Origin: Zootoca vivipara
Taxonomy: Eukaryota
Length of the DNA: 64,000 nt
Reading direction: 5' to 3'
Assembly: GCF_963506605.1 (NCBI RefSeq)
Contig: NC_083281.1
Coordinates: forward strand, 56,792,001 to 56,856,000
In this document: piece by piece, positions 19,901 through 24,685 of the stretch
How the letters are laid out: every line of letters begins with the position of its first letter
Numbering within the stretch: the stretch's first letter is position 1
Made by a program: the position numbers

Positions 19901-22900
19901 CTTGGCAGGGGGTTGGACTGGATGGCCCTTGTGGTCTCTTCCAAATCTATGATTCTGATTCCTATTTCTTTCCCATCATACATACCGATGCAAAGTCTAA
20001 CAAGACTACTCCCTGCTGAACATCACCTGTAATGGCAAGACGACCAACTTGTTCCCATCACCAACCAGCACTTGGTTTCTTCCCTCCGCATTCCTTTTTC
20101 CTTTCAAATCGTGCCTTTAGAGTGAGACCGTTGACCAGAGACTTTCAATATATTCCTTGGGGCAAAGTGCCATCTTGTTGGTATCCCTCAGAAAAAACTC
20201 CAGTCCTCTTATAGATAGCAAAATCTATGTCTTTTCCCACCCACCCCTTCTTACAGGTCTAAAATGCCAGAGAAAACGTTTTTCATTCCTTCTTCCATTC
20301 ACCTCATTGAGCTGCTTCCTTGATGAGGAAGTTATGCATTTGCCTTGAAGGCAAATGGTTCTACTAGATGTTCTGTGCAGTCTTGTTTCAAATTGTTTTC
20401 ATTATGAAATATAGTACTTTTGTACAACAATAAAATCCCTACCTTGGTAATTCACTTTAAATGTCTATGTCAAAAGACACTACTAGAGATCTTTGACCGC
20501 CTGTGTGTAGAGAAGCATCTCCACACACACACAACACCTGACAGTGATGTGCAGTGATGAGGCGGAAGAGGGAACTCATTTTCCAAGCAAGAGCCAGCTC
20601 ACTTCCAAGGGGTGCATTTAACTGCATTTCCAGCAATACACACAGAAGAAATGCAGCACCTTGGAACACCTACATTCCCTGAGGTCCTATTTAACTGAGC
20701 ATTTAGTACCCTCTTCCTTGAAACTCTATAGAGCTTTTTTGGCACATTACACCAACATTCTCTCAACAGCTCATAGAAGGCTGTCTCCCAAAGCCTGGCA
20801 GTTACTGTGGTCCCCAAAGGACAATTTTGCATTTCCAAGAACATTTGTCCAATAAAACTTTTTCTGTAGCCTAGTCCCACGCCCACCCCCCAGAAAGGAA
20901 GGCGAGATTTGAGAAACCTTTGAAGGAAGAGCTGCAAAACGGGGGCCCTCCACATGTAGTTCGCTCATCAGCCCCAGGCAACATGGCAAATGGTCAAGGA
21001 TGATGATTCTAGTACAGCAACATCTGGAAGGCCACTGCTTTAATGTGACAATTTTTTGAGCAACGCCCAACCCTCTAGGACTGCCATCCTCTGCTATGCC
21101 TACTTTAAGGGCCAGAAAGCACAATTATTGTAGGAATTGTGTTATTCAACACATTTGTACCCTGCCTCCTGCAGACATAGAGGTATCCTGTACTCAATGT
21201 GCAACTCCTCCGTTAGACTGGGGTTTAGGTACCAGCCTGTGTTAACAAAAGTGCAACATAGTTAAGTTTTCCCTTCACAAGGCTTTCCCTTCACAATAAG
21301 TCTGGACCTTCTTCCACTGTGGGAAATGGAGAGGAAGACGGGCCACTGTGTAAAAAGATCCTTCAGTTGAGGGCTGGGGATGCTCAACTCCCAGCTCCCA
21401 TCATCCTCAACACCTAGATGGCCACAGGTTCAATTTCCTTGCTTTACCAAGTTCTAAAACCTATGTCCACACCTGCACCAATGCAGGGGAACTGCCTGGT
21501 CCCCACTTCTGTCCTGTAAAGAACGTCTTCATGCCTTTAACGCTTTATTGCTCTCTTTCAAGGCTGCAGAACAAGCCCTTCTGAGTGGAAAACCCTTGCG
21601 CAAGGAAATGGTTTAAGTCAGGTGTAGGGGTGGGGAACCTGTGTTGGACTAGCTCCCATCAGCCTCAGACAGTGTAGCCCATGATAAAGGCAGCTGTAGA
21701 GTTCACAGGTGGGTCATATCTCATTTCCAGCAGTCACCAGAACTCCTGGCTGCCTCTTACAAGTGAAGGAGATGGTGGAGTGGTTAAAGCAGTGATTTTC
21801 AACCAGTATGCCGTGGCACCCTGGGGTGCCTTGAATGATGGGAAGGGGTGCTGTGGGCAACACTGGCCTCTGTCCCTCTTTCCTCCCCTTCCTCCTCTGA
21901 TGCCCTCTTGCGTCTCTGCCTCCCAAAGGCTTGCACAGCTGTTTGTTGCAGCATCCCTGCCTACAAGCTCCCCAGGCAAATGCTGCCTCTGGGGCTGGCC
22001 AGGGGGTGTGTCCCAGGCCCTTGTGGGGCAGTGTGAGGTGGCACCTCTCTTTGGGGCGGGGGGGGGGGGAGCAGCTCAGAGACCAGAGGTGGCAGCTGCA
22101 GCTGCCCAAAGGACTCCCAAGGAGAAGAGAGGAGGCTGAGGCAGCACTCCACAAGGGAGGGTGTTCAAAAAAAGGGTGAGGCTGCCAGCTCTGCAGGCAA
22201 GGGGTGACATAATCGGGCTTCTGAGCCCCACAGGGGTGCAACAGAAAGAATGTAGTTGGTCAAAGGAGCCGTGGACCCAAAAAGGTTGAAAACTTATGGG
22301 TTAAAGCAGGGGTCAGCAACCTTTTTCAGCCATGGGCCGGTTCACTGTCCCTCAGACCATGTGGTGGGCCGGACTATATTTTGGGGGGGAAATGAACAAA
22401 TTCCTATGCCCCACAAATAACCCAGAGATGCATTTTAAATAAAAGCACACATTCTACTCATGTAAAACCATGCTGACTCCCGGACCGTCTGCGGGCCGGA
22501 TTTAGAAGGTGATTGGGCTGCATCCGGCCCATGGGCCTTAGGTTGCCTACCCCTGGGTTAAAGGGTTGGACTACAATCTGGGCTGAAATCTCCACTACAA
22601 CCATGACTCAACTTTGGACAGTCAATCCAAAGTCTTAACCTTTCCTTCAGAGTTGCTCTGAGAACATTGAGGGGGATGACACCCTCCAGTACTACTTTGA
22701 GCTCCTTGCAGAAAAGGTGACCTTACTTCAACTCTGTGTCCCCTGAAGGGATACTTGTTTGTGCAAGGACTTGCCAACCTCCAACTCCCAGCTGTCTGAC
22801 CTACCATCATTAGTTGCCGGGGGCGGGGGGTAGGGAGGGGACCGAAGCCATCATCTTGCAGGTTCAGATTGCAACAGGAAAAGAGGCCTCGGTGCTGCCA

Positions 22901-24685
22901 TCTGTGTCTTGCCATACTCCCAACCCTGCTCATCCTATGAGGAAGAGGAATCTCAAAGCAAACACATTTCTTAGTCTTCGGGGATCCCCAAGGCTCTTTT
23001 TGCTGTGGTAGTGAAGAACAGACTTCTTCTGAATCTTGTTTGGACTCCAAAATCTCCACCTCCAGCAATCCAGCTAGTGAGCTTTGCATAATAATGGTTG
23101 CCTGGAAAATCACAAGAATCCCATTCCCCACTGCCCTGATTTCATCCTATCCTTTGTGAGAGCACAAAGCCCCATTCCCCACTGCCTCAATTTCATCCTG
23201 TCCTTCATGAAAGCAGCATTGCCAGCTGGACGCACATCAAGTCTCACTGGGGGGTGGATGAGAAAGGCAGCTGACCGCAGCTCCAGTCAACAGGACCTCA
23301 GCAACGAATCATTTGCTAGGACAGTATATGTCTAGAGAACTTCCTGTGGCTCTCGAAAGTGCTTCTGCCTGGCTCCCCAACCCCCCCCCCCGTCACGGAA
23401 CCCAACAGCGGGTGGAGACCCAGCTTCTGTTTCTGTAAGGCAAACAGGCTGGCAATGAGCTTTAGGAACTTTAGCCAATCATAGATGGGAACTCTAAAGT
23501 GTTTTCCCCTTCTTTGCTGCTCCTGGAATCCTACACATGCCCCCCTAATCCACTGACTTCTGCCCTAAAAACTTATCTCTTAGGGAGTTGTCATACTTTG
23601 GAATCTTGGCCTTCAAAAACAGAAATGTCCTCTGCTCAACGTCTATGCAAGGAGCTGCAAAACCAGCTACTAAAAGCAGGAAAGGTCTCATTAAACCGCA
23701 TGGTCTTTATTTTCAGTGCCAATATTACAGATACAACACAAACGTCCCAGGAGGAGAACGAATTCAAATGGAATCCAGGACTCTGACAGGCTCAGGAAAT
23801 GAAAAGGGCTGAGGGGGGAAAGCAGCTTTGCAGTGGAGTCTTGAGATGAGTCTTTCTGCAGGCAAATGGTGCCCCCCCTTTCCATCTTTAAGCAACACAC
23901 ATTTCCTTTCTACCCACCTACCACAGCTGACAGCCAAGGATCAGACAAGAGGAGTTCCAAGATTTGGGGTGGGGGGCACGCTGAAGAGCAACTTGCTGGA
24001 GGGAGCAGCCAGTCTCGTCCATCATGATGCTTTCTGAGAGGGAGGCACTGGCCAAAGAGGACTTGACGTTGCTGCCTCCGCCACTGAATCCTCCAAAGCA
24101 GAGCTTCTGTCCAGAACAGCAGGTCCACCTATCAATCCCCTTCTCAGACTCAAGCCACTGCCCTTGGGGTGTGCAGTCAAGCGTAGAAAAGGCCCCCCAT
24201 GTCGGGGAACTCCAAGGAGAAAGGGTCTCCAGCATCCTTGGAATACATTTCCAACATGAACTCTGGATGAAAAGTGCCTGAAGGTGGTAACCCGGCTAGC
24301 AAGGAGCCGAAACAAAACTCGCTTCACTCACTCACTCACTCGCCCACGCCCACCGGAGGAGAGAAGGTGGCAGGCGGGGAGAAACAGTCGCACATGCCAC
24401 AGTGCACCTCCCCTCCCCCCTATTCCAAAACAAGGGGAACGTGGCTTCTGTGGCAAGTGTGGCTCAGCAGCCAGGAGAGGAGAGAAGAGAGAGCGAGCCA
24501 GCAAGTGTCTTAAGAGATATGCTTCATCAAGGTGAGCAAGGCCAGTCCTCCTGCTCTGCAGCAGCCGCTGCTCTCGTCAGCTCCCCTGGCCATGGTGCAA
24601 GTGGGGGGATTTCTGGAGTCACAGCGCTCTGCCCAGCGTTCCTTCGGCCAACCAGGTGGGGTGAGGAGGGTGGGGCCAGAGCTCA

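What the first reader, a model, noticed from the sequence alone, without database searches (positions are those of the whole stretch)
20440..23690. PHLPP2 is missing from its usual position between MARVELD3 and AP1G1
Known: in human the large multi-exon PHLPP2 gene (PH-LRR-PP2C) lies between these genes. Seen: only about 3.2 kb separates the two candidate polyA signals, much of it MITEs, with no LRR or PP2C exons. Inference: lineage-specific loss or translocation of an AKT/PKC regulator.
Basis: partly seen in the sequence, partly recalled or inferred. Interest (0 to 1): 0.65.

Follow-up and report, generated by a model that had tools for sequence, protein, structure and literature searches.

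The report
PHLPP2 gene absent in a lizard
In this lizard DNA the PHLPP2 gene is missing from the spot it occupies in humans, but a 2025 paper already reported that snakes and lizards lost this gene, so the window only confirms that loss.

Summary
The window comes from a lacertid lizard: its ATXN1L protein is 97% identical to that of Podarcis raffonei. It carries TAT, MARVELD3, AP1G1 (with SNORD71), ATXN1L and a ZNF821-like gene in the human 16q22 order.

MARVELD3 (+) and AP1G1 (-) end tail to tail. Their stop codons are 5,102 bp apart and the candidate polyA hexamers 3,271 bp apart. None of 150 ORFs of 28 aa or more across 19,635-25,477, and none of 780 ORFs scanned over the whole window, matched an LRR, PP2C or PH domain. 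The same scans did detect exons of TAT, MARVELD3 and AP1G1.

"Much of it MITEs" is only partly borne out. Two elements with terminal inverted repeats cover 758 of 3,251 bp.

The interpretation (lineage-specific loss) is right but already published. PMC12002173 states that PHLPP2 was lost in Squamata, twice in turtles, and in caecilians. That paper never uses the word synteny, so this window adds the local picture: no PHLPP2 remnant and intact neighbours. I could not test translocation or assembly collapse, because no vertebrate genome collection or reads were available. Interest is low.

The parts
2056..4480 (-). 5' exons of TAT (tyrosine aminotransferase); the gene runs off the left end of the window
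   Evidence: TAT_ubiq (E 3.3e-14) in ORF 4055-4480. Aminotran_1_2 in ORFs 2862-3491, 2556-2858 and 2056-2214.
17788..17856 (+). Short match to the N-terminal cytoplasmic part of MARVELD3 (upstream exon, boundaries not mapped)
   Evidence: tblastn of Elgaria MARVELD3 (P0001), residues 155-177, 70% identity, E 8e-4.
18966..19580 (+). Last coding exon of MARVELD3 (MARVEL domain) with its stop codon at 19578-19580. The exon start after the AG at 18964-18965 is inferred.
   Evidence: Pfam MARVEL, E 3e-7. 86 homologues; the named ones are MARVELD3, best 76% identity. Sequence read.
19697..19885 (+). Retrotransposon-like ORF fragment inside the presumed MARVELD3 3'UTR. The CR1/L2-type tail motif is recalled, not tested.
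   Evidence: Translation. No Pfam hit. A 63-bp piece at 19899-19961 recurs at 36481-36539.
20429..20434 (+). Candidate MARVELD3 polyA signal (AATAAA)
   Evidence: Use of this signal is not shown, as there is no RNA data.
20440..23690 (.). Intergenic interval where PHLPP2 lies in human; no PHLPP2 exon detected
   Evidence: 0 of 150 ORFs hit LRR, PP2C or PH. No Rfam match at E<=0.1 in 19500-25000. No tRNA. No tandem repeat.
20944..21035 (.). Dispersed repeat fragment
   Evidence: 70-75% identical copies at 36846-36952 and 58926-58996.
21790..22298. Candidate MITE 1 (509 bp). Weak 15-nt terminal inverted repeat (11 of 15, counted by eye). Flanked by GGTTAAAG at 21782-21789 and 22299-22306.
   Evidence: (families D2, D3). 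No Pfam hit in its ORFs.
22307..22555 (.). MITE 2 (249 bp). Terminal inverted repeats CAGGGGTCAGCAACC / CAGGGGTAGGCAACC. Flanked by GGTTAAAG at 22299-22306 and 22556-22563.
   Evidence: A 45-bp copy of its right end (96% identity) lies at 36544-36588.
23706..23711 (-). Candidate AP1G1 polyA signal (AATAAA on '-')
   Evidence: Use of this signal is not shown.
24683..24784 (-). Last coding exon region of AP1G1 with its stop codon at 24683-24685
   Evidence: Translation ends ...NNFPTQSWQ*. Alpha_adaptinC2 profile positions 86-111 of 111.
25075..42028 (-). Remaining AP1G1 coding exons, collinear from ear domain to N-terminus
   Evidence: Ear domain in ORFs 25075-25221 and 25495-25755. Adaptin_N in 9 ORFs, running from profile positions 489-523 (27202-27438) down to 1-53 (41561-42028). 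PDB gamma1-adaptin 102 bits.
31239..31324 (-). SNORD71 snoRNA in an AP1G1 intron
   Evidence: Rfam RF00576, 65.8 bits against a gathering score of 34.
53676..55658 (+). ATXN1L single-exon coding sequence
   Evidence: AXH and ATXN-1_C domains. 97% identical to Podarcis raffonei ataxin-1-like.
59625..60974 (-). ZNF821-like exons (STPR repeats and C2H2 zinc finger). The gene name is inferred from the domains and the position.
   Evidence: STPRs, E 3.7e-6, in ORF 59625-60476. C2H2 zinc finger in ORF 60624-60974. ZNF821 follows ATXN1L in the human list of PMC5784682.

Best explanation
This is the ancestral PHLPP2 locus of a lacertid lizard after the gene was lost. The flanking genes keep the order and orientation seen in human 16q22: TAT, MARVELD3, then AP1G1 with SNORD71, ATXN1L, and ZNF821-like. 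The whole PHLPP2 gene has been removed, and so has the SNORA70D snoRNA listed next to it in human. MARVELD3 and AP1G1 now end tail to tail about 3.3 kb apart, and small transposable elements have since inserted into that spacer.

Shown: the gene order, the distances, the absence of detectable PHLPP2 domains, and the squamate origin of the window. Inferred: one or a few large deletions, rather than slow decay alone, removed the gene; the event dates to the squamate stem, as the published clade-wide absence implies; and the loss was tolerated because PHLPP2 is dispensable (the paper cites viable knockout mice and reports no catalytic activity).
For: The human order 'TAT, MARVELD3, PHLPP2, SNORA70D, AP1G1, SNORD71, ATXN1L, ZNF821, IST1' is listed in PMC5784682 (passage).

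No LRR, PP2C or PH match appeared in 0 of 150 ORFs between the two genes at E<=1, or in 0 of 780 ORFs over the whole window. The same ORF-by-ORF scan did pick up exons of genes that are present, down to a 33-aa ORF of AP1G1 (E 1.8e-4). An intact PHLPP2 would therefore have been seen.

No SNORA70 or any other Rfam family matched in 19,500-25,000 at E<=0.1.

The window has no N.

Chicken keeps PHLPP2 on chromosome 11, alongside TERF2, PDP2 and CMTM4, which I recall as human chromosome 16q genes (PMC10286233). The gene was therefore present in the sauropsid ancestor.
Against: No PHLPP2 sequence could be obtained, so the locus was tested only with Pfam domain models, not with a PHLPP2 protein. Short or badly decayed exon relics would be missed.

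Outside 19,635-25,477 only ORFs of 47-50 aa or more were scanned.

No other squamate, tuatara, turtle or bird locus could be compared. Both the timing and the 'deletion rather than decay' step are therefore inference.

I did not see how the paper scored absence. Its Fig. 7E and SI were not available, and searches of its main text for method words found none.

The polyA sites are hexamer matches only.
Confidence: 0.8

Rival explanations
1. Translocation: PHLPP2 is intact but sits elsewhere in the lizard genome, so only the synteny is broken.
For: The window covers only 64 kb, and nothing in it speaks to the rest of the genome.
Against: PMC12002173 reports PHLPP2 as lost across Squamata from its survey of PHLPP paralogs in gnathostomes. 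Full-text searches pairing PHLPP2 with squamat*, lizard, Anolis or snake returned that paper. By title or abstract, the other listed papers were biomedical, livestock or bank-vole studies, and the only Anolis co-mention was incidental.
Confidence: 0.07
2. Assembly artefact: the PHLPP2 region was collapsed or dropped when this genome was assembled.
For: Nothing positive. It simply cannot be excluded without reads.
Against: The window has no N or gap. Both neighbours are complete at their 3' ends, with stop codons and downstream polyA hexamers. Absence is reported for the whole clade, not for one assembly.
Confidence: 0.04
3. Slow in-place decay: PHLPP2 became a pseudogene and shrank through many small deletions, so unrecognisable relics make up the spacer.
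For: A spacer with no recognisable content outside the two MITEs and one repeat fragment fits this as well as it fits a large deletion.
Against: Only 3.3 kb remains where human has a large multi-exon gene, so almost all of its length must have been removed. No exon-sized relic was detected at E<=1. This rival differs from the best explanation only in tempo.
Confidence: 0.09

Closest known systems
Published loss of PHLPP2 in Squamata (PMC12002173, PNAS 2025; passages seen)
   Same: Same gene, same clade, same conclusion of gene loss. The window is from a lacertid lizard and lacks the gene at its ancestral site.
   Different: The paper reports the loss from a survey of PHLPP paralogs across gnathostomes, and the word 'synteny' occurs 0 times in its main text. 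The window adds the local anatomy: neighbours intact, a 3.3-kb spacer, and no relic exon.
Human 16q22 gene block TAT-MARVELD3-PHLPP2-SNORA70D-AP1G1-SNORD71-ATXN1L-ZNF821 (list in PMC5784682)
   Same: TAT, MARVELD3, AP1G1, SNORD71, ATXN1L and a ZNF821-like gene are all present in the same order.
   Different: PHLPP2 and SNORA70D are missing.
Segmental deletions as a cause of gene loss in squamates (PMC13005343, BMC Biol 2026; title and abstract from the listing, term search)
   Same: Same general process proposed: a gene is removed while its neighbours stay in place.
   Different: Its main text mentions PHLPP, MARVELD3, AP1G1 and ATXN1L 0 times. Its supplementary tables were closed and may list this locus.
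Splice-isoform separation of MARVELD3 in reptiles (PMC4494069, passages)
   Same: The window's MARVELD3 has only one MARVEL-domain exon. This matches the paper's statement that reptiles, birds included, have two MARVELD3 genes and no alternative splicing.
   Different: This is unrelated to the PHLPP2 loss. Caecilians, which the PHLPP2 paper says also lost the gene, still have the second exon type.

Membership tests
PHLPP2 gene (RA-PH-LRR-PP2C architecture, as described in PMC12002173) | Exons encoding leucine-rich repeats | tested here: not met
   0 of 150 ORFs of 28 aa or more in 19,635-25,477 at E<=1. 0 of 780 ORFs over the whole window.
PHLPP2 gene (RA-PH-LRR-PP2C architecture, as described in PMC12002173) | Exons encoding a PP2C-type (pseudo)phosphatase domain | tested here: not met
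   Same scans; no PP2C hit.
PHLPP2 gene (RA-PH-LRR-PP2C architecture, as described in PMC12002173) | Exon encoding a PH domain | tested here: not met
   Same scans; no PH hit.
PHLPP2 gene (RA-PH-LRR-PP2C architecture, as described in PMC12002173) | Direct similarity to a PHLPP2 protein (TBLASTN) | not testable with these tools
Conserved 16q22-type synteny block | TAT upstream of MARVELD3, on the opposite strand | tested here: met
   TAT on '-' at 2056-4480. MARVELD3 on '+' at 17788-19580.
Conserved 16q22-type synteny block | AP1G1 (gamma-1, not gamma-2) hosting SNORD71, followed by ATXN1L and ZNF821 | tested here: met
   PDB gamma1-adaptin 102 bits against gamma2 38 bits. SNORD71. ATXN1L. STPR and C2H2 ORFs. 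Human list.
Squamata (the clade of the published PHLPP2 loss) | The window's proteins are closest to squamate orthologues | tested here: met
   ATXN1L is 97% identical to Podarcis raffonei, 80% to Rhineura and 74% to Pogona; birds and mammals are at 52-58%. MARVELD3's best hit is Elgaria.
MITE (non-autonomous DNA transposon) | Terminal inverted repeats | tested here: met
   For 22307-22555, the aligned ends match at 25 of 34 columns, including the first 7 and 13 of the first 15. For 21790-22298, only a 9-nt exact core within a 15-nt repeat (11 of 15), which is weak.
MITE (non-autonomous DNA transposon) | Target-site duplication | tested here: met
   GGTTAAAG lies on both sides of both elements, at 21782-21789, 22299-22306 and 22556-22563. 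The superfamily was not assigned.
MITE (non-autonomous DNA transposon) | Many copies in the genome | tested here: inconclusive
   Only one 45-bp partial copy was found in the 64-kb window. No genome or repeat library was available.

The most novel reading that the evidence does not exclude
PHLPP2 (and the SNORA70D snoRNA listed beside it in human) was removed in a single clean deletion in the squamate stem lineage, with both breakpoints in the 3' flanks of MARVELD3 and AP1G1. All snakes and lizards would then share the same compact tail-to-tail junction. The junction would date the event exactly and would make squamates a well-defined natural PHLPP2-null group of amniotes for testing what the pseudophosphatase does.
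Probability: 0.45. Interest if true: 0.25.

Novelty: already known. Interest (0 to 1): 0.12.

Why it matters
PHLPP2 was long treated as an AKT/PKC phosphatase and tumour suppressor. Its absence from a large, successful vertebrate clade supports the published view that it is dispensable and probably non-catalytic (PMC12002173). The window adds only a locus-level confirmation: the neighbours are intact and nothing recognisable of the gene is left. That would help anyone mapping the deletion breakpoints, but the picture does not change.

Tried and rejected
I replaced it with ORF-by-ORF scans.

2. Idea: one deletion removed both PHLPP2 and the second, alternative MARVEL exon of MARVELD3. The window does lack that exon. 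tblastn with four second-type domains found only the first-type exon, at 25-30% identity. But I rejected the link, for three reasons:
   - Among 113 second-type proteins at E<=1e-30, none was a sauropsid, while 3 were caecilians, a clade that the paper says also lost PHLPP2.
   - That search was limited to proteins of 350-1115 aa.
   - PMC4494069 already explains the single exon as splice-isoform separation in reptiles including birds, and PMC2805614 reports two MarvelD3 genes in chicken.

3. I looked for non-coding genes in the spacer. There was no Rfam match at E<=0.1, no tRNA and no tandem repeat.

4. Self-comparison to measure repeat content matched only 137 of 3,251 bp to another place in the window.

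5. PMC13005343, on squamate segmental deletions, has no mention of this locus in its main text. PMC9573974 mentions PHLPP2 and Anolis only incidentally.

6. Not done:
So there was no TBLASTN for PHLPP2 and no synteny comparison with tuatara, gecko, turtle or bird.
   - No reads were available, so the assembly was not tested.
   - Spliced genes were searched one exon or ORF at a time. I built and searched no joined coding sequence.
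Full report
**What the window is.** The 64-kb window has no N. It is lizard DNA, not human. The 687-codon ORF at 53595-55655 carries AXH and ATXN-1_C domains. It is 97% identical to ataxin-1-like of Podarcis raffonei, 80% to Rhineura and 74% to Pogona. Birds and mammals are at 52-58%, and tblastn places the Podarcis protein at 53676-55655. I take the source to be a lacertid lizard.

**Gene map.** I searched spliced genes one ORF or exon at a time and built or searched no joined coding sequence.
- TAT lies on the minus strand. TAT_ubiq is in ORF 4055-4480, and Aminotran_1_2 is in three ORFs down to 2056.
- MARVELD3 lies on the plus strand.
  - ORF 18768-19580 has a MARVEL domain.
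  - The exon part, 18966-19577, found 86 proteins. Every named one was either named MARVELD3 or carried a MARVELD3 name from a second source. The best was Elgaria at 76% identity.
  - A short N-terminal match lies at 17788-17856.
- AP1G1 lies on the minus strand.
  - The ear domain is in ORFs 24686-24784, 25075-25221 and 25495-25755.
  - Adaptin_N appears in nine ORFs in collinear order, up to profile positions 1-53 at 41561-42028.
  - The last exon ends ...NNFPTQSWQ, with its stop at 24683-24685.
  - The ear exon scores 102 bits against gamma1-adaptin and 38 bits against gamma2 in the PDB.
  - SNORD71 sits in an intron at 31239-31324.
- Beyond ATXN1L, minus-strand ORFs with STPR repeats and a C2H2 finger (59625-60974) fit ZNF821.

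This is the human 16q22 order, 'TAT, MARVELD3, PHLPP2, SNORA70D, AP1G1, SNORD71, ATXN1L, ZNF821', as listed in PMC5784682 (passage). PHLPP2 and SNORA70D are the only members missing.

**The observation.**
- MARVELD3 and AP1G1 converge.
- Their stop codons (19578-19580 and 24683-24685) are 5,102 bp apart.
- Of 157 ORFs of 28 aa or more overlapping 19,600-25,500, I scanned 150 against Pfam at E<=1.
- None hit an LRR, PP2C or PH model. Two hit the adaptin ear. Every other hit was at E>=0.02 and below its curated cut-off.
Four of those were scanned later.
- Further scans used E<=0.01: 226 ORFs of 50 aa or more in 1-19,634; 143 minus-strand and 135 plus-strand ORFs in 25,478-52,999; and 126 ORFs in 53,000-64,000.
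- Those scans gave only the genes above plus three weak chance hits. In all, 0 of 780 ORFs showed a PHLPP2-type domain.
- The same procedure found exons of the genes that are present, down to a 33-aa ORF, which serves as a positive control.
- The spacer has no Rfam match at E<=0.1, no tRNA and no tandem repeat.

**Repeats.**
- Two elements have terminal inverted repeats and sit side by side at 21790-22298 and 22307-22555.
- All three junctions carry the same 8-bp GGTTAAAG. This suggests two insertions into the same target.
- The second element is convincing. The first has only a weak terminal repeat.
- Together they cover 758 of 3,251 bp.
- Self-comparison found just 137 bp of the interval repeated elsewhere in the window.
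- 'Much of it MITEs' is therefore only partly borne out, and without a repeat library the rest is unclassified.

**Interpretation.**
[quoted passage not shown] - Chicken retains PHLPP2 on chromosome 11, next to TERF2, PDP2 and CMTM4, which I recall as human 16q genes (PMC10286233).
- That paper never uses the word synteny. I could not see its Fig. 7E, SI or scoring method.
- The window contributes the local anatomy: intact neighbours, a 3.3-kb spacer and no relic.
- PMC13005343, on segmental deletions in squamates, does not mention this locus in its main text. Its supplements were closed.
- Searches pairing PHLPP2 with squamat*, lizard, Anolis and snake gave no paper describing a squamate PHLPP2.

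**What remains open.**
- I could not bring a PHLPP2 sequence into the session, and no vertebrate genome collection was available.
- A translocated copy, the deletion breakpoints and the timing are therefore untested.
- Without reads, an assembly collapse cannot be formally excluded.
- My weights are: true loss at the ancestral site about 0.8, slow in-place decay 0.09, translocation 0.07, and assembly artefact 0.04.

**Side result.**
- The window's MARVELD3 has one MARVEL exon only.
- Some over-long database models show that frogs and mammals carry two exon types in tandem.
- The second type is absent from the window.
- It is also absent from sauropsids among 113 hits, within the length limits of that search.
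- I first wondered whether the PHLPP2 deletion had taken this exon too.
- Caecilians keep it, and PMC4494069 already describes the pattern as splice-isoform separation in reptiles. I dropped the idea.

**Verdict.** It is already published, so interest is low.

Noticed in passing
window 18966-19580 (and the whole window): MARVELD3 here has a single MARVEL-domain exon. The second, alternative exon type seen in frogs and mammals is absent from the window. The literature already explains this as splice-isoform separation in reptiles (PMC4494069), with two MarvelD3 genes reported in chicken (PMC2805614).
   Followed up: yes
window 21782-22563: Two different terminal-inverted-repeat elements lie directly side by side, and all three junctions carry the same 8-bp sequence GGTTAAAG. 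It looks as if the second element inserted into the target-site duplication of the first. The host sequence around them may itself be a SINE-like repeat (my impression, not tested).
   Followed up: partly
window 19697-19885: An ORF fragment in the presumed MARVELD3 3'UTR reads like the C-terminal tail of a CR1/L2-type retrotransposon protein (recalled motif). It had no Pfam hit.
   Followed up: no
window 19500-25000: SNORA70D, listed between PHLPP2 and AP1G1 in human (PMC5784682), is also absent. Only SNORD71 was found in the window.
   Followed up: partly
proteins P0002, P0003, P0004, P0005 (database models, not the window): Four annotated MARVELD3 proteins (Sousa, Gastrophryne, Camelus, Discoglossus) contain both alternative MARVEL exons in tandem. 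These are probably read-through annotation errors that fuse mutually exclusive exons.
   Followed up: partly
window 50000-54000 and 60000-64000: GC-rich stretches (GC 0.55-0.60) lie between the first AP1G1 coding exon and ATXN1L, and again at the right end of the window. They probably mark CpG-island promoters. The AP1G1 5' UTR exon was not mapped.
   Followed up: no
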